DNA of 64,000 nt from Ginglymostoma cirratum (Eukaryota). Below the pieces are notes generated by a model. The model was given only the letters and a program-made list of their open reading frames with translations, was not told the origin of the DNA and did no database searches. The stretch spans positions 43,630,554 through 43,694,553 of the forward strand of contig JAHRHZ010000009.1 in the NCBI GenBank assembly GCA_024137785.1, in the 5' to 3' direction. Of this stretch, positions 2,946 to 57,528 are shown in pieces. Positions within the stretch are counted from its first letter, which is position 1. Each line of letters opens with the position of its first letter. Made by a program: the position numbers and the translations under genes.

Positions 2946-3781
2946 TTAAACATGTTCCCACAAGAAGCAAAGATGATAACTATAAACTGGAGAAATTAAC
3001 ATTAAATTGAATTTTAAAAGAACAGAAGAAGTGCCATATTTCTATTGAAACATTTGCCCGGATATTCCAAAGCCGTATAGTCATTGCAGCAGCGCAGACC
3101 AGAGCTGCACATTGAGACCACGTAGAATCCTTGACATTGCAGACTCCATGGAAATTGCCAAAGAAATTGAAATTTACAATATGCAATTCACTTGCATCAG
3201 CAAGTCTCTGAATGTGTCTCTGCATGGTAGATCTGTTTCATTTATGCTTAAAGTTAACCCAGAAATGGTTAGAGGATCAAAGAGCTGTTCTACCTTCTGG
3301 GTAAGTATTAAATTTATCTGACTCATTACTGACCATCTCAACTATACTTCCTCCTGACAAGTCCCCAATCACTCCCCCTCCCCTGCTTCGCAATGAACAC
3401 AACATCCAGACCTGATCCTGCCAGACATGAGCCAACACTGCAAACTTGACCTGATGTCAATGGACCGCATGCCCACACCCCACATTCCCTCCCACAACCT
3501 ATTCTGAGATTCTAGAACCACCAACACTGCCACCATTCCATACCCTGATCTGCCCTAACGATTCATCAAATTTTCTGGCACTCCGGCACCAACCCTCTTA
3601 CTTATCCACCTGATACTCTTTTCATACACCTGACACACTACCCACCTGGCACCCAACCCATTTATCCACCTGGCACATTATCCCATAGCCTACCAGATAT
3701 TCTTTCCCTTCCTTAGTCAATCTTAAATTTTTCCTAAGTGGTAACAAATTCTCTGGATTTAATGGCCAATATGATTAAGAA

Positions 3782-3880
3782 GACAAGGTCAGAAATCATA
3801 TGACACCAGGTTATAATCCAACAGGTTTATCTGAAAACATAAGCTTTCAGAGCCTTGATCCTTCTTCAGGTGTTAGTTTC
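3782..3880 (-). mobile_element. Single arm of a Penelope-derived element (same family as 46172-46335) with a minimal hammerhead motif
   Basis: Minus strand reads AACAC-CUGAAGA-A-GGAUcaaggCUCU-GAAAGCUU-AUGUU. The arm matches 46172-46250 (gtcagaaatcatatgacaccaggttataatccaacagg). Confidence 0.75.
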
Positions 3881-7099: not shown

Positions 7100-7384
7100 A
7101 TCTGTAGCATCTCTTCAAAGGCAGAGTTGCGCAGTATATTACAAGATTGGAACATTTAATTTCATGCCCTCTCTCCAGGCACTGTGTTGGATAAGTGTAA
7201 ATAAAGTTAGTTCAGTGAGGCCTGGCTATAATTGAGTATGTGTCAGTCTTATTTACTGAAATGTACAGTAGAAAGAAGGTAACAATGATAGGAATTTCCT
7301 TTTACATCTCGTCCAAGAAATTAATGCTGAAGAAAGTGGCATATTTTGGAACTTCTAAAGTTAAGACAATTTGAACAATTGTTC

Positions 7385-7625
7385 ATAGAATCCCTACGGT
7401 ACAGGGGCAGGCTATTCAGCCCATCGAGTCAACATCGACCCTCTGAAGAGCATCCTCCCCATACCCACTCCCCTACCCTACACCTGTACCTCTGCATTTC
7501 CCACAGCTAACCCACCTAGCCTGCACACCCCTAAACACTATGGGCAATTTAGCATGGCCAATCTACCTAACCTGCACATCTTTGGACTGTGGGAGGAATC
7601 CGGAGCACCTGGAGGAAACTCACAC
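7385..7625 (-). mobile_element. HE1/V-SINE-like tRNA SINE, 5'-truncated
   Basis: Contains gggcaatttagcatggccaatctacctaacctgcacatctttggactgtgggagg, shared with the other copies. Confidence 0.9.
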
Positions 7626-9334
7626 TGGCACAGTATTTAACTGTTTATTTACTTTATTTGTTTCCTTTGGCTGAATTTAATTCTTTCAAGTTTTTTTTTC
7701 CGTGGATGGTAAAATTTGTTTTGAACTTGTCTCATGTTTTAGAAAAGTCCTGTCAATATTGAGTAATGGGAAATAGCATGACATGATAGTTCAATTCTTC
7801 AGCCATCGAAACTATAAGTTTTATCTCTTACCTAAGTCTAAAGCACTTCTATATTTTTCAGATCTTGTTATCCATCTTGGCCAAACTGAAGAAAGAAGCA
7901 ATTTCTCCGAGTTCTCAGAAAAGCTTTCTCTATTTGTAGCTATGTCATTTTCAAGCCTCAGTTTGCTCCAGGACAAATTGTTTGATTTCTTAAAGTTTCC
8001 AGTTCATCACTTAAAGAAATAGCTATTGTCAGCATGACATGTAATAGGTTTTATAGCAGGAAGTAAGGGGTTTCCAGATTGTAACATTTTTCTTTATCTA
8101 GTAGTTTTCTAGCGTTTAGCTTGATATGTAAAGTAACCATTGACACACCTCCTAAACTTGATTGTGTACATTTCATGTAGCAGCTCTGCTCCTCCTGGAC
8201 TTGCCCTTATCCATATTATGTAGAGATAAACAGCAGATGGCCTAAGTGTTCACCTTTGACAACTTTCCTGTTAGAAATGTATCAAACAGGGTGTCTGCGA
8301 ATGGATCTTCTGCACTGAGGTTAATTTAAATGTTTGGAATCAGCTCTCTGTAATACTTCTGAGGGAATAAACTGGAAAGGAGGATGGACGAGGACAATTA
8401 TTACAGTTTCTGTTTCAGCATAATATGTCTGATATATTGTTGAGTGCAATCAATCACCCACTGCCAAGTCAATGATGGATGACAGGAAAACAACAAGCAT
8501 TTTTAAAGTGCAAGTCTTGCTAAAGTGTTCAACCTGGGGGGAATGTTGGATGTCCTTTACAAATATTAACCTAAAATTTACAAATTTTATTGACACGGGA
8601 GAAAATTCCAAAGGAGCAGCAGATGTTCTATGTTATTGGAGTTTAGGTCTTTGTCTCAGGGAATAGGATGATACCTGACTCCAATATTAATCAGAAGACA
8701 TGAGCTGGTAGATAGTGATTCCTGAGGTTCATCATCCACTTCAAGGCTTGCAAGACCTTTAGTACCGCTGGCTTCTCCTTCATGTTCAGATCCTCTGTCA
8801 CTAATAGAATCCATTGCGGCTTTACATTTTCAGTACATAATTGCAAACAAAAATTGCATAGTGGCAAAACCTACATTTAGTCACAACAAAATGAAAACAA
8901 ATCTATGTTTTTGATATTAAGTGGTGCTTCCTTAATTATTTCTTGATATAAAATAGTTAAACTATTCTTGGATTTATTTGATGGACAATGAACAAAGCTG
9001 TCCTCACACAAGGTCTTATTCCTCTCAATATTTATTCTGCATGTAACAGCTGCTGACTATAAGATACATCCTAATAATAAAGCTATTTATTTCAATGAGG
9101 TTAGGAGATAGCAGACTGATTCCTCTCTTTGTTCCATTCCTCAATTAATTGCAGAAGAATGATGAGATATGGCCAATTATTTACTTAGTTAACTGTGTTA
9201 AACCTTATGTAAAGGAATAAGCTGGCCAGGCTCATTGAATTTAATAAGTGAAATATTAGTTTTATAACAAAAGTGACTCAAGTGAAGATATAGGTAATTA
9301 CTAAAAGGTAAAAATATGTCCTGACTTCGATGGC

Positions 9335-25120: not shown

Positions 25121-25634
25121 AGAATCATAGAATCCCTACAGTGCAGAAAGAAACCATTCAGTCCATTGACTCTGCACTGACCCACTGAAGAACATCCTGC
25201 CCAGACCCAGCTTCCGAGAGTAACCTCATAATTCTGCATTTAGAGTCTTGGAGTTATACAGCATGGAAACAAACCCTTCAATCCAACTTGTCCATGCTGA
25301 CCAATAAACTAGTCCCACTTGCTTGCGATTAACCCATATCCCTCTAAACCTGTCCTATTCATGTACCTATCCAAATGTCTTTTAAATGTTGTAACTGCAT
25401 CTACCACTTCCTCTGGCAGTTCATTCCACATATGAACCACCTCTGTGTGAAAAAAAATGCCCCTCAGGTCACTTTTACCTACCTAACCTGCCCATCTTTG
25501 GACTGTGGGAGGAAACCAGAGCACCTGAAGGAAACCCATGCAGAGACGGTGACAACATGCAAACTCCACACAGTCACCAAGGCTGGAATTGAACCTGGTT
25601 CCTTGGTGCTGTGAGACAGCAGTTCTGACCACTG
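25121..25634 (-). mobile_element. HE1-like SINE with an internal CR1 3'-end piece (about 25241-25475)
   Basis: SINE tail 25121-25240, CR1 3' end, then SINE body and head 25476-25634. Confidence 0.8.
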
Positions 25635-26699: not shown

Positions 26700-27150
26700 A
26701 TGTGGGCTTTAGGTTAGAATGTTCCCAGTAAGTTATTCTTTGGCTGCATGCTGGAGATAGCATGTGCTGGACTTAGTCAATACAGTGTGGAGCTAGAGGA
26801 ACACAGCAGGCCAGGCACCATCAGAGGAGCATAAAAGTCAATGTTTCGGGTTTCCACCCTTAATTACCCGATGAAGTGTGTAAACCCAGAATGTCGACTT
26901 TCCTGCTCCTCTGATGCTGCCTGACCTGTTGTGTTCCTCCAGTTCCACGCTGTATTGGCTCTGATTTTAGCTTCTGCAGTGCTTGCTATCTCCAATGTGG
27001 TGGATTAGTTATATGCTGGATATGATGCATGTTGGCTTTAGCTGCATGTTGGCATTAGCTGAGTGCTGGTTTTACCAGAATGTTTAGATTTAACATGTGG
27101 AATGCTATATCTTGGATTTAGCTGAAAGTTGAATTTTGCTGTGTGTGGGG
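26700..27150. repeat. Degenerate ~17-bp minisatellite (gcatg[ct]tggatttagct-like), interrupted by a palindromic element
   Basis: tgcatgttggctttagc tgcatgttggcattagc tgagtgctggttttacc; similar units at 26745-26778. Confidence 0.55.
26776..26992. mobile_element. Palindromic Penelope-derived mini-element with decayed back-to-back hammerhead cores
   Basis: Arms gaggaacacagcaggccaggcaccatcagaggagc / gctcctctgatgctgcctgacctgttgtgttcctc. At the centre the minus strand reads GGGUggaaACCC-GAAA and the plus strand CCGAUGA. Confidence 0.8.
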
Positions 27151-27179: not shown

Positions 27180-29270
27180 TGTCATAACTCATGTAACCTC
27201 TGTTGTAATTGTATGTAATGAACCATTCTGTGCTGTAGACATATCACATTGAACATGGTGTCAAAAATGTGCCACTGTAATTGAGTGGATTTTGATAGTC
27301 GTACAGTAAAGAAAGGGTTATTTAATTACCTCATTGCAAGGCAGCTTTTAGAGAAAAAAAAGACAATCTATGATTCAGTTTTATATTGAGTATACAAGTA
27401 ATGCAATTAAGTCCAAAACTAATTCTTAAACAAAGGGAAAACTTGGCTACAATGGTTTGAGAAATTACATGAAAAGATAAAAGTTTGGAAATAAAAACAG
27501 TATTGCTGGCAAAACTCAGCAGGTCTGGTAGTATTTGTGGAGAGAAAGCCAAGTTGACACTTCAGGTCCAGAGACTCTCCTTCTGAGTTCTTAATAAGGG
27601 TTGCTGGATCCAAAATGTTACCTCTGCTTTCTCTCCCCAGATGCTGTCAGACCTGCTGGGTTTTTCCAGCAAATTCTGTTTTTGTACATGAAAAGATATG
27701 ATAGTAGACAAGCAATGACTTGCCTTTGAAGACTTAATATAACATTAGTAACAAATATATATTTCTTGAGGACAGAAAAATCCCACAAAATAGTCCACCA
27801 TGACAATCAAGAGGAATTAAAGACAGCTGCCGATCAAAGGATGAGATCTACAATGTTACCAAAATATATAAGCCTGGAAGGATTTTTGAATTCAGCACAG
27901 GAGAGCCAAGAAATTGATATGGAAAGAGAAGATAGGCCAACAAAAACATAAAATGGATCGCAAATAGTTCTATAAGAGTGTAAATAAGATGAGATCAGTC
28001 AAATTAAAGATGGCCCTATTCAAGTCAGAAATAGGTGAAAGTAGTAAGGAATTACATAGTGACAGAAACATAAAGCAAATATTTTGGGCTGAATTTTTGC
28101 AGCAAACAGAGCTTTCAACAAATGATAGCGAGTGTCCTAGAAGGTGAGGAATGAATAATTTCCCCCTTGCAATTAGATAATTAAATACATTGGTGACAAG
28201 CATCTACAAGCAGAGAGCATGTCAGTTTGAGATCTGTGTTACAATATCTACAAGAAGCAAAACTTATCCCAGTGACAAACGTGAGTTTCTGAAACCAACT
28301 GTTAAACTGTTGGGACACATTGTACACATATCTCGGATCAGAGCAATTTCCCTAAAGTCAGGCGTGATTAGAAAAAAATCACCTCCTCAAAATATCACAG
28401 AGCTTTGCTGATTTATGGATAGTGAATCAAGTGGGAAGGCTTTTCCTCAAATTATCAAATGAGAATAAACTGTCAAATCAGTTGCCAAGGCTGATGTAGA
28501 ACAGTCTGTGATTATTGTCAGAGCTGGATCATCGACAGAATTGGGAGCTGTGCTTCTCCAGAATCAGACAGATGGTGAACATTGACTGGTGTACTGTGCA
28601 ACTCTTTCTGCGAATCAAACAGCATAAAGATGTGCAGTTATTGGAAAAGAAGCAATGATATCTGGACTTATGAGAAGTTTACAGACTATGAGGTGAAACT
28701 TGAGTTAATATTCGCAATAAACCACAAAACCTTTGGTTAGTTTTTGAATGGTAAGGAATTAGAAAAGATACTGCCATGAGTGTCAAGATTTCATTTGAAG
28801 TTTTTGAGATTTGATGCTGCAAATTCATATGTGCAAAGGAAAAAACAGACTATAGTAAGTGCATTGCCTTGCATTACTATAGTAAGGCCTGAACAAGGGC
28901 ATATAAATTATGTTGAAGACATGAACACAATTGCTTCACTAATTACCAAGTATCTGCCAGCTACAATACAACATTTAAATAAGACTAGAAATATACAAAA
29001 ATCAGATGCAGAACATACTGAAATCCATGAACATGATAGCAAAGGCCAGAATGTGTTCCACACAATCCTATTCTAAGAGAGCATTTTGAGCAAAATAAAC
29101 TCAGTATCTTGCATAAAACCTCCTGACTGATAAGATATTTTTCATAGTGACAGACCTTGGACTTGATAAACTACAGTGGTTATACCAGGGTCACTTGGGC
29201 ATCAGGAAGTGTTGTGTGATGGTGCCAAATACTATTTTATGGCAAGTGTTCTCAAAATGTTGGAAGAGAT
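27180..29270 (+). mobile_element. Gypsy LTR retrotransposon remnant, internally deleted
   Basis: LTR-end CA plus PBS-like TGGTGTCA at 27254-27263; RT/RH DKREF..LLGHIV..PPQNITEL (ORF 28190), ELGAVLLQ at about 28540, KEA at about 28645; integrase QGHLGI.KC at about 29186. Confidence 0.75.
27490..27685. mobile_element. Palindromic Penelope-derived mini-element inside the Gypsy remnant
   Basis: Arms aaaacagtattgctggcaaaactcagcaggtctgg / cagacctgctgggtttttccagcaaattctgttttt; decayed hammerhead-like centre at about 27585-27625. Confidence 0.8.
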
Positions 29271-30320: not shown

Positions 30321-31085
30321 ACATGTGCTATGCATCTGGATTCCAATCCAGAGCAGAATTACAATAATTGATACAAAGGACACAAAGTACCAGGCTGGCG
30401 AGTCAGTGTGGAGTCATATTGAAGCTCAGCAAGGCCAAATTTTTCAGTAAACATTTCATCCACAGTTCAAGAGCACACTAGTTCTGCAAGGAGGCGATCC
30501 TATACAGGGGAAGGCTGAAGAAGTCTTCTACTTCTGGAAACTGCTCTCAGAGTGTTCCAAGCGAGGACAGAGTCTCTTCAGCCCTTCTACTTCCGACCTT
30601 GGCCCCTCACTAGCTATGATGAAAGGACCCTGCAAAGGTACAAGAGGCCCTCAGCATGAATCAGGCAGCCAGAGGACAGCCACCAAGGTCAACAGAGGCC
30701 ACCATGCAGCAAGGTCAGCAGCCTATTTCCACCTTATCACACAGCAGGACAACTAATATGTGCAATACATATTGGTTGGACTAATCAGTGAAGGCTTCAT
30801 GTAGTCTTCTACACCTCATATGGGGTCAGCAGAGACAACAGAAATTTATAAAAGGGAAATAGGAGATAAGGTTTTACAAATGTTACCAATGAATGGCATC
30901 CTGCATCATAAGAAGGCTGTCATCCTTTCAAAGCCATGCGTTGACGTTCTCTGCTCTGTCTGGCTATAAAATATATTGAGCTCTATCAGAATACTGACCC
31001 TCTGTAACCTCCTTTGTGCTATTGTGGATTGTAAATGGGACATATTGCAGATATTACTTGTTCCATCCTGAATGAAACCTGATTT

Positions 31086-31385
31086 CATAGAATCCCTACC
31101 GTGCAGAAGGAGGCCATTCGGCTCATCAAGTCTACGCCGACACTCCAAAGAGCATCCTGCCGTATGCTACATTTACCATCATTAATCCATCTAACCTGCA
31201 TATCCCGAGATGCTATGGGACAATTTAGCATGGCCAATCCACCTAACCTGCATATCTTTGAATAGTGGGAGGAAACTGGAGCACCCAGAGGAAACCGACG
31301 CAGACACGAGCAAACTCCACACAGACAATCACCCGAGGGTGGAATCGAACCAGGGTCCCTGGTGCTATGAGTCACCATGCCGCCC
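31086..31385 (-). mobile_element. HE1/V-SINE-like tRNA SINE, near full length
   Basis: Head gggcggcatggtgac, B box ggttcgattcc, conserved core, and tail ...gtagggattctatg. Confidence 0.92.
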
Positions 31386-34545: not shown

Positions 34546-35128
34546 GATAAAAGGTACTGCAGATGCTGGAGAATCCGAGACAACAAGGTGCGGGGCTGGA
34601 CGAACACAGCAGGCCAAGCAGCATCACAGGAGCAGGAAAGCTTGATGTNNNNNNNNNNNNNNNNNNNNNNNNNNNNNNNNNNNNNNNNNNNNNNNNNNNN
34701 NNNNNNNNNNNNNNNNNNNNNNNNNNNNNNNNNNNNNNNNNNNNNNNNNNNNNNNNNNNNNNNNNNNNNNNNNNNNNNNNNNNNNNNNNNNNNNNNNNNN
34801 NNNNNNNNNNNNNNNNNNNNNNNNNNNNNNNNNNNNNNNNNNNNNNNNNNNNNNNNNNNNNNNNNNNNNNNNNNNNNNNNNNNNNNNNNNNNNNNNNNNN
34901 NNNNNNNNNNNNNNNNNNNNNNNNNNNNNNNNNNNNNNNNNNNNNNNNNNNNNNNNNNNNNNNNNNNNNNNNNNNNNNNNNNNNNNNNNNNNNNNNNNNN
35001 NNNNNNNNNNNNNNNNNNNNNNNNNNNNNNNNNNNNNNNNNNNNNNNNGGCCCGAGGCGTCAAGCTTTCCTGCTCCTGTGATGCTGCTTGGCCTGCTGTG
35101 TTCGTCCAGCCCCGCACCTTGTTGTCTC
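34546..35128. mobile_element. Young palindromic Penelope-derived insertion spanning the gap, with 14-bp TSD
   Basis: About 70-bp perfect inverted arms (gagacaacaaggtgcggggctggacgaacacagcaggcc...). TSD tcaataactttaga at 34532-34545 and 35127-35140. Confidence 0.88.
34649..35048. other. Assembly gap (400 N)
   Basis: Run of N. Confidence 1.
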
Positions 35129-36664
35129 AATAACTTTAGAGCCTGAATACATCCTCATATCTTTTACTCACCCCCACACCCTGGTCCTGCCATGACAGGG
35201 GTTGCTTTCAGCGCAGCCTACCCATTCCCTTTTATTCTTGGCTCTCCTTATCGCTTATTCAGCAGCTCGTCAGCCCTGGCTTACTATCAATAATCTCATC
35301 TGGTTACACTTTTCATATCTCTCTTTCTGTCTCCTTCTCCCCCTCTCAGGACACTGTCTCTACTTTGTGTTCTCTCCCCGGACCGCCAACATCCTACCCC
35401 ACCCCCACATCCCCCCAACCTCATCTTCACCATAAATAGCAAGTTATTTTTTCCCTAGCTACAATTAGTTATGATGAAGAGCCACTGGTCTTGAAACGTA
35501 ATTCTGTCTTTTCTCCGCAAACCTGCTGAATTTTTCCAGCAATTTCTGCTTTCGTTCAGATCTCCAGCATCCGCAGTCCTTTTTATTTATCACCGGAACT
35601 GTAATTTAGAAAATCTTCTGCTCTCGCAAAGTCTGTGGAAATGCTGTGGAGTGTTTTTGAAAGTGTTGTGGTGAATTGTGTATTGACCAGGAAGTGATGC
35701 TGCATTCTCACATGGAGGACAGAGAGATAGGTGAGCTGTCTGTGCAGATACTGCAACAGAAGTGGAGCTGCAATGACAGTGCAAGCTCTGCACGATGTCA
35801 TCTGTTAATCTGGAGACAAACTTCTCTCTCTTTCCTAATGGTGATAGGAGGATGCTTTGTGAACTAACCAATGCACCTAACATCTTGATGTGTATTGTCA
35901 TTAACTATTTGCAACCCGTATTGCCCTCCGGTGATATGAAACATTCTTTATTCCAGGACTGTTGCAGCTCACTCATATCTGTATGTTCCCAATTTGCATC
36001 CAAAGTACATGCATTTCCAATATCTGAGCCATTGTCTGCAATCATGTGATGGAGCCTTCTCAGCAGTGTGTCGATCCCTGTTTGGATTCTGTATTTGGCA
36101 GGGGACATTTCATGGCTTTTCAAAAGTTAGGAAATCAGAAGGTATCAGGAAAGCAATTAGGGAGGGGGTAAAGTAAGAGATCCCTGGTTACGCCATCAGT
36201 AATTTGTTCATTATAGCTGATAGCAAGATGATGGTAAACTGGACTCAAGAAGGGACATTAGGTGAGGACTAAGTGTCATTTTCAATGTTCTCAGTGGTGG
36301 CAAATGCCATGGGCTGATTCAAAAATATCCCTATGTTGATGAAAACCATTGCCTCTGTAGGAATGAAGTGCCCCTGTTGTCTTCCCATTCTGCTCAGTCC
36401 CCTTCTGTTGTGTACCACCTTGTCCAACAAGAGAGCTCAAAATATCAACAGTTTTGTAGCACAGTATTTGGGTGGCATGCCTACCAAAGCCAAATAGTTT
36501 TTGATATGTGGAAGGAATGTGAAGTGAAGGTGAAGCTAGTCATATTATGACGTGTGTGAGTGAAGTGGAGTATCTGGATATTTGGGATATGTCTCGCATC
36601 AGCATTTTGTGCTTCTATTTCTGTAACAACAGTATCATACTTCTACAGTACAAGTATTTGGTCA

Positions 36665-36845
36665 AATAAAACAAAGAACTGCGGATACTGGAAATCTAAA
36701 ACAAAATGCTGGAGGAACTCAGCAGTTCTGGGAGCATCTGTGGAGAGAAAGCAGAGTTAACATTTTGAGTTCAGTGAGCCTTTCTCAGAATTGGATTTGA
36801 AAGGGGTCACTAGACTCAAAAAGTTAATTCTGCTCTGTCTCCCCG
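36665..36845. mobile_element. Palindromic Penelope-derived mini-element
   Basis: ggagagaaagcagagttaacattttgagttcagtgagcc / ggggtcactagactcaaaaagttaattctgctctgtctcc; stem-II-like GGGUCacuaGACUC. Confidence 0.75.
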
Positions 36846-36989
36846 AGAACGCTTGGTAGTTTGGTGGCCTGATATGTGATGTGAAAATGTGTATACTGTG
36901 TGAAGCCATGCCAACGCTTCATCTAACCACCCCCACTACTAATGACTCCAATGTTCATCTGTTATGTTGGATTCTCCTTGCCCTGGTGT

Positions 36990-45712: not shown

Positions 45713-46171
45713 CATGGAAATCCTTTTCAGACTAATTGTAGGCAGCAAACATGTGCCTAAAAATATCAGTCATCAGTCATTGAGAAAGGTGCTTGGGTTG
45801 GTGAACGTCAGCAACGTAGATGCTCGAACATGGTTCCAATGCATGGTAGAATGTAGTCACTCTTCCAGAGGTGCTAAGGAAGACTCATTTTCACATCACT
45901 CTTGTTTTCCACATGGCATGACAAGACCAAACTTTAGCTGTATCATGAGCAATCCCTTCTTGCTTGACAATCCTCTCATCAAGTCACAACAGAACTGCAT
46001 TTCCTCTTCTTTGCATTCAATACCTGCTATTAGCTTCACAATGACTTCTTCCACTTGTCACACTCACTGCTTCTTCCTCTCCACATATACAATAACCTGC
46101 TTCATGCATCCTCTGAATTTTTGAACAGGATCACACATTTTGTGGACGTGCTGGTGTTAGACTGGTGTGGA

Positions 46172-46335
46172 CAAAGTCAGAAGTCACATAACACCAGGTC
46201 ATAATCCAACAGGTGTTTTGAAATCACAAGCTTTCGGAGAACTGCTTCTTCACCTGATGGAGGAGCTGCACTCTGAAAGCTTGTGATTTCAAAAAGCCTG
46301 TTGGACTATAACCTGATTTTGTGTGACTTCTGGCT
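46172..46335. mobile_element. Palindromic mini-element with overlapping hammerhead motifs on both strands
   Basis: Arms gtcagaagtcacataacaccaggtcataatccaacaggtgttttgaaatcacaagctttcggag / ctctgaaagcttgtgatttcaaaaagcctgttggactataacctgattttgtgtgacttctggc. Confidence 0.88.
46250..46286 (+). ncRNA. Minimal type-I hammerhead ribozyme motif with one core substitution
   Basis: Stem I UCAC (46250-46253) / GUGA (46283-46286); core CUGAUG(G)A; stem II GGAG-cugca-CUCU; GAAA at 46275-46278; palindromic stem III AGCU; CUU triplet at 46280-46282. Confidence 0.65.
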
Positions 46336-47569
46336 AGGTCACATATGAACATATTTCTACTTGTTTGCAGGGAAGGAGACTCCAACCAATGGGACTCTTC
46401 AAGGACAGAAGCAATGTCCAGCTATTCGCAACATTGATTACAATGGAAGGCAATATGACAATATCAAATTATAGAGCAGGTTTGAGGGACCAAACGGCCT
46501 ACTCGGCCTCCTAATTCATATGTTTGTTATGATAGTACTTGAACTCGGTGGCAGAGGGACCAAGATATGGGATTTAGACTTCTCCTATTCCTGTTATCTT
46601 TCTACTTAACTCACTGACTTACCAAATGTGCAGAGTATGTCAACCTAGGTCTTTAATCCATTGCCACTCAGATGTTTACCCTTGCCAGTGTGTGCTATTT
46701 CTTATCTCAACATCACCTTCTAGGTTCTTTAAATGATTTTGACTATTGCAACAACACAGATGGAAAGAGGCAAAATTTCTGAAGAAACACCATTACTGAC
46801 TTTAATCTTAGCAAGCATGAGTACGGACATCCCTATCACAGAACTGCGCAGGTCGATTCAAGTTGACTAATTATGGAGCGAGGATAGAATGGAAATCCCA
46901 GGAAGTTTGTGGCTAGACCCCATTCTCAGGGTCCAACTGTGTAGAAGAGAACAAAGATGCTGCCTTTGCAAGAGCAGCTTCCAAACATGAAATACTTTCT
47001 GTAACGTTCTGTCAGCGCTGAAAGCATCAGAAACTGGTTGGCAGGGAGCTACCACTCTATGTTAAAAATGGTGGAGAACGCCACTATAAACTCGTCTGGT
47101 GATGTTGTTATTATTGTTGCGCACAGAGTTTGGAGTGTATGCTCACCTCAATAAACAATGCAGCATAAACCTTGCAGGGGACTTTGACACCAGCAGTCAT
47201 ATCATTCCTTAGCCATGCAGTCCTGGGCTCAGTCATTTTCTCCACTTTAGACAGGGTTGAAGACAGAACAAATGAAGACTTTGGACTGATTACACAATGT
47301 GTGCACTTAGGTCTACTGCAGGTAAGTGGCGGTTTGGAGATACAAACCAATCATGAGGTGAATTACTCAATATGAGTGGAACAGATTTCCCTTCTTCTTA
47401 GGGCGACAGCAATTCTACAATTCACTAATTATTCGGGCAATATCTTCTCTATTGTCTAAAACCACTTAGGTAAGGAGCTGAGATGCTGAAATATGCAGAT
47501 GGGTCTTTGAAGTCCTGAATGTAAAAGGGTCAATGACCAGCTAAATTTCAGGACATATTTATGCCACAG

Positions 47570-49477: not shown

Positions 49478-49779
49478 GGGGCGGCAAAGGGGCTCAGTAG
49501 TTAGCACTGCCGCCTCACAGCACCAGCGACCCGGGTTTGTGGAGTTTGCACATTCTCCCCGTGTCTGCATGGGTTTCCTCCAGGTGCTCCAGTTTCCTCC
49601 CACAGTCCAAAGATGTGCAGGCTAGGTGGATTGGCCATGCTAAATTGCCCATAGCATTCAGGGATGTGTAGGTTAGGTGGGTTACAGGGGGATGGGTCTG
49701 GGTGGGATGCTCTGAGAGTCAGTGTGGACTTATCGGGCCAAAGGGCCTGTTTCCGCGCTGTAGGGTTTCTATGATTCTA
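49478..49779 (+). mobile_element. HE1/V-SINE-like tRNA SINE with a deletion over the B box
   Basis: gggcggcaaaggggctcagtagttagcactgccgcctcacagc...tgtagggtttctatgattcta. Confidence 0.92.
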
Positions 49780-50844
49780 TTAAAAACAATGACATGTGGA
49801 TCCATGAAGCAAAAAGCCGTCACAGTGTTGATTGTCTTGAAAATGGTGCTGAAGGTCCTGACAACATTGTTTGACCTACTATTATCATACATTTTAGGGG
49901 CATGTACTTGGAATTAGGATAGCAATTGAAATATCATAAGCATTTAAAAATAATGATTTTATTATGTTAAAAATCTTGCTTTTTAAAATTGTAATAGAGA
50001 ATTTTTGTATACTTCAAAATATTAAATGTTTTTCAGGCCCAATCATTAGAAGTTGTCACATTCATTCCACAAGGTATAGTGTTTTGGAAGGGGATTGTTA
50101 TAAGAAGAGTTGAGTGCAGAAAGTGGAAACTTTTGACAATTCTTGTAGTTTCTAATGATTAAGACTTGTGGAAACTTCAACAGTGTATTCTGCAATGAAA
50201 CAGATTACTGCAATAGAGCAATTTCTGGATGTTTTCATTTAATCATACATGTGAGAATGCCAGAAGCTGGTATCAGTTAACAGTTATACAACAGAATCAC
50301 TGTCAATTTCACTGCACTTATAGCCACAATGTCTGTACATGAGGTTCATTCAATTGCTGCTCATCCTTTTTAGTGTCGGTGGTCATTGAGGAGCAGTGCT
50401 GTGCCAATGTAAGTTGGTGAGTTTCTGTAGTACACAATGTACATTATACTTAACACAAAAATAGCATGCCAATAATGTTAACATTGGAAAATAAGTACAG
50501 TGGTATAGCATGAATCAAACAATTGGTTTGTCCTGATGTAGTGAGTTCCTCAACCATCAATTTAGTTGCGCGCATTTAAGCAAAATTATGAATTTTCCAT
50601 CAGATTCCTAATGAGAGGCTAGGAGGTGTTGCACAGGTTTTTGAGGAGTCAGGAGGTAAGCATTTTTGTTTTGAGAAATACTGCATCCCTAACCTGGCTT
50701 TTGCATCCACCACATTCACATGGCTGGTCCAATTAAGCCTTTGATTAATATTGCGAGTGTTCTCAGAGGTGAGTAAGGGTGGAGATGAGATTGTTGAACA
50801 TGTTTCATGTTTCAGATGTTCAGGCCTTTATGTGGCCTAAGTAT

Positions 50845-52120
50845 GAATGTACATGAAAACATATAAATTATGAGAAGAACTAAACTATTCAATCCCTCAA
50901 GCCAGCTGTGCCATTCAATAAGAACATGGCTGTCTGTTTGTCCTCCAAATTTAACATTCAAATACTTTTCTGATAATGTTTGATTCCCTTGCTTGCCTAA
51001 CAAAATGTGTCCACCTCTGCTGTAAAAATATTCAAACTACCTTGTCTATCATATCATAGATTCCAAAGTTGCACAACCAAAATTGCCTGTCTCTGTGGCG
51101 CAATCGATTAGGGCGTTTGGCTGTTAACTGGGGGTTTGGGGGCAGCATGGTGGCTGAGTGGTTAGCTTTGCTGCCTCACACCACCAGGGACCCAGGTTTG
51201 ATTCCACCCTTGGGTGACTGTCTGTGTGGAGTTTGCACATTCTCCACATGTTTGCGTGGGTTTCCTCCAGGCGCTCCGGTTTCTTCCCACAGTCGAACGA
51301 TGTGCAGGCCAGGTGGATTGGCTATGTTAAATTGCCCATAGTGTCTAGGTTGGGAAATGCAGGGATAGGGTAGGGAGTGGGTCTGGGTGGGATGCTCTTT
51401 GGAGGGTCAGTGTGGACCCGATGGGCCAAATGGCCTGCTTTCACGCTGTCGGGATTCTGTGATTCTGTGAACCCACTGAGAGAAAAAAAACTTCTACATC
51501 TCTTTGTCCTAGATGAGAAATCCCCTAAATTTAAAGAGATGCCTCCTAATTCTGGCCTCACAAGAATAAACATTTTTGCCACGTACCCCTTATCAAGACT
51601 GCTCATCATCTTATAAGTAAAAGTAAAAGCACCCCTCTCTCTTTTCAAGGCTTGTGAAAACAAACCTCATTTGTCCAATCATTCCTCATAAGAAAACTCA
51701 CTCATTCCCAGATTTCAATCTAGCAAACCTCCTCTGAATTGACTCCAACTCATTTGCATCCTTCCTGAACACATTATTTGAGATGCATTCTCACAAGTGC
51801 CCTGTAGAACTGAAACATAACATCCTTATTTTTACAATCAATTCCTCTTGGAATGAATGCTAGTTTGCTACTGACCTTCCTGATTATGTGCTATACCTAC
51901 ATATTAAACTTTTGTGACTTATGCTCTAAACCATTTAGGATCTTTTGGACCTCAGAATGCTGCAATCATTCTCCGTTTAAGTAACACTCTGATTTTTTGT
52001 TATTCTTCCACCAAAGCAAACAACTACTTCATGCTCCATCTGCTCGGTTTTTCATCCCTCACTTGATCTTTCTACATTTTTCTGCATCCTTGTAATGTTA
52101 TCTTCATAGCTATTTCCTAC
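50845..52120 (-). mobile_element. CR1 LINE 3' fragment interrupted by a SINE
   Basis: CR1 3' UTR at 50850-51090; the ORF2 end resumes at 51470 (YKMMSSLDK in ORF 51322). Confidence 0.75.
51140..51467 (+). mobile_element. HE1/V-SINE-like tRNA SINE, full length
   Basis: A box tggctgagtgg, B box ggtttgattcc, conserved core, and tail gggattctgtgattctg. Confidence 0.92.
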
Positions 52121-54167: not shown

Positions 54168-54484
54168 ACCATGACTCAGTTGTTAGCACTGCTGCCTCAC
54201 AGCGGCAGGGACCTGGGTTCAATTTCACCCTCGGGTGACTGCCTGCGTGGAGTGTGCACATTCTCTCTGTGTCTGCATGGGTTTCTGGTTTTTCTGGTCT
54301 CTTTCCACAGTCAAAAGATGTGCAGCTTAGGTCAATTGGCCATGCTAAATTGCCCATAGTGTCTAAGAATGTGCAGGCAAGCTGGATCAGCTATGGGAGA
54401 TGCACAGTTACAGGGATCGGTTAGGGGGATGGATCTGGTAGAATGCTCTTCGGAAGGTCACACTGTAGGGAATGTATGATTCTA
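54168..54484 (+). mobile_element. HE1/V-SINE-like tRNA SINE
   Basis: ttagcactgctgcctcacagcggcagggacctgggttcaatt...attggccatgctaaattgcccatagtg. Confidence 0.9.
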
Positions 54485-57186: not shown

Positions 57187-57528
57187 ATCATAGAATTATA
57201 GAATCTCTACAATGTGGAAACAGGCCATTCTGCCCATTGAGTTCACAATGACCCTCCAAAGACCATTCCACCCAGACACACCCCCAACTCAATCCCTGCA
57301 ATCACACATTTACCATGGCTAATCCACCTTGCTTGCACATCCCTAGACTCTCGGGGTAATTTAGCACGGTCAATTCATCTAATCTTTGGACAGTTGGATG
57401 AAAACAAGAGAACCTGGAAGAAATCTACCAAGACACAGGGACAACATGCAAACTCGACTCGGGCTGTCGTCTGAAGCCAGAATTGAACTGAGGTCCCTGG
57501 CGCTGTGAGACAGCAGTGCCAACTGTGG
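57187..57528 (-). mobile_element. HE1/V-SINE-like tRNA SINE, diverged
   Basis: Tail atagaatctctacaatgtggaaacaggccattc; head ggtccctggcgctgtgagacagcagtgc. Confidence 0.85.

What the first reader, a model, noticed from the sequence alone, without database searches (positions are those of the whole stretch)
46172..46335. 164-bp palindromic element built around back-to-back minimal hammerhead ribozymes
Seen: a near-perfect hairpin whose centre has complete type-I hammerhead topology on the plus strand: stem I UCAC/GUGA, CUGAUG(G)A core, stem II GGAG/CUCU, GAAA, palindromic stem III AGCU and a CUU triplet. The minus strand carries the overlapping partner (..UGAAGAAGcaguuCUCC-GAAAGCUU-GUGA), with its 5' core partly lost at the overlap. 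Established: Penelope-like elements carry minimal hammerheads with palindromic stem III that are thought to work as dimers. Inference: this is a non-coding, MITE-sized, ribozyme-bearing Penelope derivative, and transcription from either strand would give a hammerhead-containing RNA.
Basis: partly seen in the sequence, partly recalled or inferred. Interest (0 to 1): 0.7.

Follow-up and report, generated by a model that had tools for sequence, protein, structure and literature searches.

The report
Head-to-head Penelope leader insertion, shark
This mirror-image stretch of shark DNA is one old, decayed insertion of two back-to-back copies of the ribozyme-bearing front end of a Penelope-type jumping gene; it is a common, known kind of footprint and likely not a self-spreading ribozyme element, but its ends give a testable clue to how these elements copy themselves.

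Summary
Each arm is the leader (likely transcription start to ATG) of an RT + GIY-YIG Penelope-like element of Neptune/Nematis type, found full length elsewhere in this genome. The hammerhead is real in the family (stems covary across four families) but damaged here: A9G and G10.1-U11.1 on plus, core lost on minus, and the hairpin beats the ribozyme fold by 37 kcal/mol. The palindrome is not a self-copying MITE-like unit: 38 pairs show 26 centre spacings, arms carry no side-specific changes, several subfamilies make it, solo and long versions exist. 41 of 43 pairs have exactly one tail; 47 of 71 have target-site duplications. Short copies start at an initiator about 30 nt below a TATA box, not at the cleavage site. 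Best model (inferred): two cDNAs primed from both nicks, started at two internal sites, run off the RNA 5' end and join. Inverted pLTR + tail + TSD is in print, and this scan noted the same thing before on other DNA (82 notes, at least 11 genomes). Interest low.

The parts
46131..46138 (.). left copy of a possible, decayed target-site duplication
   Evidence: 7 of 8 bases match 46339-46346; score 5, reached by 9% of shuffled flank pairs, so weak at this locus
46139..46175 (-).
   Evidence: aligns to the family 3' end down to 46141; tail runs into the ORF start in L239/L281/L284
46176..46252 (-). minus arm: leader copy from about +5 to +82, with GAAAGCUU (46235-46228) but no C3, no stem I 5' strand and a broken stem II
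46248..46252 (.). 5-base overlap (CTTCA) shared by both arms: the head-to-head junction
   Evidence: the parent has CTTCA just before and (T/C)GAAG inside the core
46248..46338 (+). plus arm: leader copy from -6 to about +82/+86, no tail
46250..46286 (+). decayed minimal type-I hammerhead (A9G, G10.1-U11.1); predicted cut site after 46282
46339..46346 (.). right copy of the possible target-site duplication

Best explanation
The palindrome is a single old insertion of two head-to-head copies of the leader of a shark Neptune/Nematis-type Penelope-like retroelement, likely built anew at each landing rather than copied from a palindromic master. Shown: the parent is pLTR-ORF-pLTR; the arm spans from an initiator-like site (about 30 nt below a TATA-like box) through the hammerhead to the ATG; copies end at two fixed 3' positions (+80-90 and +117-121); pairs nearly always combine one of each; a target-site duplication flanks the pair. 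Inferred: the element's protein nicks both DNA strands about 10-14 bp apart, each nick primes reverse transcription of uncleaved sense RNA, one at each internal start site; both cDNAs run off the RNA 5' end after about 90 and 128 nt and are joined by a few complementary bases (here CTTCA/TGAAG) or by end joining. The product lacks the TATA box and would be dead on arrival. This copy's ribozymes are predicted inactive.
For: Parent: L104 carries RT, linker and GIY-YIG remnants directly upstream of the arm; L281 and L284 have the leader at both ends of the ORF; the tail runs into the start codon. One tail per pair: 41 of 43 pairs among 86 loci chosen by single-arm queries. Two 3' ends: 26 at +80-90, 29 at +117-121, 2 between, of 57. 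TSD score >=6 in 47 of 71 pairs against 2.1% of shuffled flanks. 26 different centre spacings in 38 pairs; the window's spacing occurs in 2 of 38. No arm-side-specific position in 65 pairs (lowest P 0.017 of 82 positions); identity within an insertion 0.863, between insertions 0.864. Both subfamily types make pairs (22 A/A, 6 G/G, 3 mixed of 31 typed; 34 of 65 untyped). 5' ends in -10..-1 in 49 of 86 loci by script, 45 after removing four long copies misread through an indel (L192, L200, L221, L276). TATA-like box 29-31 nt above the initiator A in 5 of 6 family-A, 15 of 15 family-B and 2 of 2 family-C copies that had both motifs, and short B and C copies also end there. In DNA contigs of run X1 the top loose end with unrelated flank lies at the initiator A (209 contigs). 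In vitro, a lizard PLE extends both strands, starts at two internal sites flanking the tail and uses uncleaved RNA (PMC11167929, parts 1-2 of 4 read).
Against: The transcription start is predicted from motifs only; no read data show it (contigs cannot). The extra G expected from copying a cap is only suggestive: 12 of 30 unpaired copies by script (P 0.088), 10 of 21 after hand curation (P 0.035), and not evident in families B and C. 28 of 31 typed pairs have arms of the same subfamily, which fits one template or fold-back as well as two RNAs from one active source. Some centres are clearly eroded or meet further inside (spacings -11 to 31 in 8 of 38), so later deletion also shapes junctions. 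All searches return only the 40 best-scoring candidates, so samples lean to well-preserved copies. The TSD at this locus is weak.
Confidence: 0.68

Rival explanations
1. Same parent and per-insertion origin, but the mirror half is made by fold-back self-priming (of the first cDNA, or on an antisense template as proposed for rotifer PLEs), and the one-sided tail comes from endonuclease resolution of the intermediate.
For: Proposed in print (PMC3846280 Discussion; tail by EN resolution, PMC8557442 passage). The parent has a small inverted repeat at the 5' end and the window's centre is a 5-nt-loop fold-back. Arms mostly share subfamily type (28 of 31).
Against: Many pairs keep both 5' ends with 0-8 unrelated bases between and no fold-back loop (spacings 55-65 in 10 of 38). 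The loop lies on the tailed arm in some loci and on the short arm in others. Unpaired copies also end at either site. 3 of 31 typed pairs mix subfamilies.
Confidence: 0.22
2. One reading: a non-autonomous, MITE-like palindromic family that is transcribed and re-inserted as a unit, using its ribozymes.
For: Very abundant; the window's centre recurs (about 12 of 29 loci found with the palindrome as query share it in either orientation, read from the alignment); outer ends are uniform.
Against: That recurrence is query bias: 2 of 38 with single-arm queries. No arm-specific changes, no excess within-pair identity; continuum of arm lengths; promoter absent; hairpin excludes the ribozyme fold by 36.7 kcal/mol; only 2 of 86 arms pass all hammerhead criteria.
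Confidence: 0.06
3. A retrozyme (tandem, circular-RNA-forming hammerhead repeat) or a functional, host-adopted hairpin or miRNA precursor.
For: Animal retrozymes derive from PLE pLTRs (bioRxiv 10.64898/2026.07.22.740005, part 1 and passages); weak miRNA-family scores.
Against: Arms are inverted, not head-to-tail; no unpaired copy of 13 starts at the cleavage site in the set able to show it; Rfam scores are far below the gathering thresholds; arms diverged as freely as unrelated copies.
Confidence: 0.04

Closest known systems
EN+ Penelope-like element insertions with inverted pLTR, one-sided tail and TSD (Pen2a_Av of Adineta vaga, PMC3846280; general scheme PMC8557442; D. virilis Penelope PMC2377424)
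   Same: Head-to-head inverted pLTR overlapping the direct one, 30-40-bp tail on one end, about 9-10-bp TSD, TATA box plus initiator (TCACT) in the pLTR (passages).
   Different: Here both halves are cut down to the leader alone, with no ORF and no promoter; these minimal forms number in the tens of thousands. The pLTR here stops at the ATG rather than including 12-22 codons.
[quoted passage not shown]
   Same: CUGANGA, one bulged base, G10.1-C11.1, short stem I, palindromic stem III tetramer; widespread as single motifs; pairs on opposite strands already noted in Schistosoma (parts 1-2 of 4 read).
   Different: The two parts read name fish, coelacanth, Xenopus and reptiles, not sharks; this copy's core is mutated.
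PAc (Poseidon of Anolis) in vitro mechanism (Frangieh et al. 2024, PMC11167929)
   Same: Two internal RT start sites flanking an AC-rich tail about 110-120 nt below the hammerhead core; both target strands extended; uncleaved RNA used.
   Different: Poseidon clade, with the ATG at stem II; here a linker Zn-finger-like motif is present and the ATG lies at the tail end. The parts read do not derive head-to-head pairs from the two sites.
Non-LTR retrozymes (PMC7229834 listing; bioRxiv 10.64898/2026.07.22.740005)
   Same: Non-coding, pLTR-derived, type-I hammerhead.
   Different: Retrozymes are head-to-tail tandem arrays; this is an inverted pair.
MITEs (recalled definition)
   Same: Short, non-coding, terminal inverted repeats, TSD, high copy number.
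   Different: Retroelement origin, asymmetric ends, variable centre, no sign of copying as a unit.

Membership tests
EN+ Penelope-like element insertion | Parent with one ORF: RT followed by GIY-YIG endonuclease with CCHH motif | tested here: met
   RVT_1 matches below the curated cut-off for genome fragments and above it for shark relatives P0001, P0003; RT homologues 65-78% identical in sharks; GIY-YIG-like VVYLxxC..C..YIG and CCHH read by eye, no Pfam hit for it.
EN+ Penelope-like element insertion | pLTR: 3' end repeated at the 5' end of the ORF | tested here: met
   L281 and L284, 2 of 8 long loci fetched.
EN+ Penelope-like element insertion | Inverted 5'-truncated copy with 30-40-bp tail at one end only | tested here: met
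   41 of 43 pairs; window copy.
EN+ Penelope-like element insertion | Target-site duplication around the whole unit | tested here: met
   Family: 47 of 71 against 2.1%. Window copy alone: inconclusive (score 5).
Neptune/Nematis clades | CX2-5CxxC linker upstream of GIY-YIG (PMC8557442) | tested here: met
   C-x4-C-x2-C in L104 and L240 translations.
Neptune/Nematis clades | RT phylogeny placing it in Neptune rather than Nematis | not tested
   No named reference sequences were available in the hits.
Minimal type-I hammerhead ribozyme | Conserved core, paired stems I and II, palindromic stem III at family level | tested here: met
   Stem I TCAC/GTGA, ACAC/GTGT, ATTT/AAGT, AGTT/AACT in families A, A2, B, C; tetramer AGCT or ACGT.
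Minimal type-I hammerhead ribozyme | Intact core and G10.1-C11.1 in this copy | tested here: not met
   A9G and G-U on plus; C3 and stem I lost on minus.
Minimal type-I hammerhead ribozyme | Self-cleavage | not testable with these tools
   Needs an in vitro assay.
MITE / self-propagating palindromic family | Copies share one internal structure inherited from a master | tested here: not met
   26 spacings in 38 pairs; no arm-specific bases.
Non-LTR retrozyme | Head-to-tail tandem units each with a hammerhead | tested here: not met
   Arms are inverted at this locus; no head-to-tail leader array in the BLAST maps.
Catalogued Repbase/Dfam family | Match to a named consensus | not testable with these tools
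   Neither library is on hand.

The most novel reading that the evidence does not exclude
Shark Penelope-like elements start transcription on the 5' strand of hammerhead stem I, so the mRNA begins with its ribozyme; reverse transcription starts inside that leader and runs off the capped 5' end, and the genome is strewn with these 'strong-stop' cDNAs, singly or as twin-primed head-to-head pairs using one of the two start sites each. This would explain head-to-head PLE palindromes and the one-sided tail from sense RNA alone, without the antisense self-priming proposed in print, and show that the ribozyme does not cut the template in the transposing particle.
Probability: 0.5. Interest if true: 0.55.

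Novelty: new member of a known kind. Interest (0 to 1): 0.25.

Why it matters
As a locus it is ordinary decayed repeat DNA. As a class, these stubs are a large natural record of PLE integration, whose tandem and inverted structures are called unexplained in PMC8557442: both ends of each cDNA can be read from thousands of events. They also warn that palindromic 'MITE' or miRNA-hairpin calls in shark genomes can be PLE by-products.

Tried and rejected
Rfam scan: no hammerhead model matched, only weak hairpin matches. Run search: no RNA holder listed; all three runs were contigs, which cannot show a transcript start; their depth figures are not used as copy numbers. The rows at 1500-1555 in the loose-end table were rejected as alignment breaks because their loose letters continue the element. 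The Atlas gave no result for the endonuclease fragment. The weak AnkX_ins Pfam match on RT fragments is below cut-off and taken as chance. A different upstream sequence as the cause of the 5' cluster was rejected: flanks of unpaired short copies are unrelated to each other. First arm consensus held a spurious insertion and was replaced. Cap-derived G: kept only as a hint. Literature searches for a description of these shark stubs found none: 'Penelope palindrom shark non-autonomous', 'Penelope twin priming inversion' (listings only), 'Neptune Penelope shark hammerhead', 'Penelope-like solo pLTR hammerhead', 'Penelope-like head-to-head pLTR' (only PMC3846280); subscription papers, Repbase and Dfam were not searched, and no supplements were opened, which may list shark hammerheads. 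No paper on cap-derived G was found; that point is recalled.

Full report
Observation. The sequence at 46172-46335 folds into one long hairpin (-102.1 kcal/mol, z -15.1) with arms 81% complementary. Rfam has no matching hammerhead model. Compared with the family, the plus core has G for A9, G-U for G10.1-C11.1 and a mismatch closing stem II; the minus core lacks C3, the 5' strand of stem I and a sound stem II. Forcing stems I and II costs 36.7 kcal/mol, and their pair probabilities round to 0.0 in the 199-nt RNA, against about 0.5 in the family leader on its own.

It is a repeat, and longer than stated. The palindrome as query gave 3171 first-look candidates in the genome, 40 scored, all 75-87% identical apart from the self hit. 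The alignment of 29 loci showed an extra stretch of about 39 nt on one arm only, and variable centres. The window copy has this tail on the minus arm down to 46141. Position-picked stretches gave 4 loci in about 385 kb, roughly 45,000 genome-wide (95% range 12,000-116,000); 40 of the 80 stretches held no readable sequence, so this is rough.

The parent. One position-picked copy (L104) continues upstream into a 3' non-coding region and broken RT, linker and GIY-YIG frames. RT pieces match RVT_1 weakly and uncharacterised shark proteins at 65-78%, which is also my basis for calling the host a shark. The C-x4-C-x2-C linker marks Neptune/Nematis (PMC8557442 passages). In L281 and L284 (2 of 8 long loci) the same leader stands before and after the ORF, and the tail runs straight into the start codon. 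Coordinates below count from hammerhead C3 (+1); the cut site is after +29.

How copies look. I took 86 loci with three single-arm queries (30 loci each of the 40 scored, dropping three self hits and one duplicate). 43 of 86 have an inverted partner and 41 of those 43 combine one tailed and one short arm. 3' ends fall at +80-90 (26) or +117-121 (29) with 2 between, of 57. Among 71 clean pairs from all sets, 47 have a flanking direct repeat scoring >=6, against 2.1% of shuffled flank pairs; typical length is 10-14 bp. The window's own repeat is weak (7 of 8 bases). Inverted pairs also occur with arms of hundreds to over a thousand bases.

Not a self-copying palindrome. 38 pairs show 26 centre spacings and the window's spacing occurs in 2. 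Tailed and short arms have no distinguishing position in 65 pairs. Arms of one insertion are no more alike than arms of different insertions (0.863 and 0.864), so the hairpin is not being maintained. Two subfamily types each form pairs; 28 of 31 typed pairs agree in type and 3 are mixed. Only 2 of 86 arms pass all hammerhead criteria.

Where the 5' ends lie. 49 of 86 central arms end at -10 to -1 by script, 45 after removing four misread long copies; the flanks beyond are unrelated. The parent has an initiator-like TCACTTC there with a TATA-like box about 31 nt upstream. Two other hammerhead-bearing families in the fetched DNA have different sequences but the same spacing (29-31 nt), and their stems covary with family A; their short copies also end within a few bases of the initiator (25 of 42 and 16 of 20). 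In contigs of run X1 the strongest loose end with unrelated flank is at the initiator A (209 contigs). In the one set able to show it (query +30 to +91), none of 13 unpaired copies starts at the cut site; 2 of 16 pairs meet inside the AAGCTT palindrome beside it. An extra G before the 5' end, which a copied cap would give (recalled; one search found no paper), is only suggestive (P 0.088 by script, 0.035 after hand curation) and is not evident in the other families.

Mechanism. Shown: two 3' ends, one tail per pair, TSD, variable junction, 5' ends at the promoter motif. Taken from print: a lizard PLE nicks and extends both strands, starts at two internal sites that flank the tail, and uses uncleaved RNA (PMC11167929). 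Inferred: each nick primes one cDNA, one per start site; both run off the RNA 5' end; they join through a few complementary bases, here CTTCA, or with untemplated filler. The rival in print is self-priming on an antisense template (PMC3846280 Discussion). Junctions that keep both 5' ends with filler, loops on either arm and mixed-type pairs speak against fold-back as the only route, but do not exclude it.

Comparison. Inverted pLTR, one-sided tail, TSD and TATA-initiator motifs are described for rotifer PLEs (PMC3846280 passages and Discussion) and as the general PLE scheme (PMC8557442 passages); minimal hammerheads in pLTRs, including opposite-strand pairs, in PMC4209133. My searches found no paper on these shark stubs. 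This scan has noted the same thing in 82 findings from at least 11 genomes, including twin priming and starts at the transcription start; these are unchecked AI notes and not support. My reading was written down before I saw them; they led me to PMC3846280.

Verdict. Real, ordinary, decayed product of a known class of retroelement. Novelty: new member of a known kind. Interest 0.25; about 0.55 if the run-off and twin-priming model is confirmed.

Noticed in passing
window 26775-26960 and 34577-35128: Palindromes of a second hammerhead-bearing family (B); the second has perfectly complementary 69-nt arms around a run of N, so it looks young. Family B is the best material for end mapping.
   Followed up: partly
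window 27486-27680, 35480-35600, 36689-36850: Copies of a third family (C), one of them palindromic.
   Followed up: partly
window 3779-3872: Unpaired, tail-less copy of the same family (A2-like stem I), minus strand, starting at about -3.
   Followed up: partly
L104 7110-7205: A short family-B copy is inserted inside the family-A leader, so B was active after A.
   Followed up: no
L127 (flank): A fourth hammerhead leader type with stem I AGCT/AGCT, also below a TATA-like box and an initiator-like site; one copy seen.
   Followed up: no
L253 and L277: Two copies whose 5' ends fall at the TATA box itself (-38).
   Followed up: no
L091 8287-8435, L259, L262: Pairs whose centre lies at the AAGCTT palindrome next to the ribozyme cut site; microhomology or a trace of cleaved templates.
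   Followed up: partly
window 7383-7631, 25125-25623, 31085-31379, 49493-49780, 51151-51470, 54172-54438, 57188-57517: A frequent dispersed repeat of 250-500 bp in both orientations; from memory it resembles the shark HE1 SINE, not tested.
   Followed up: no
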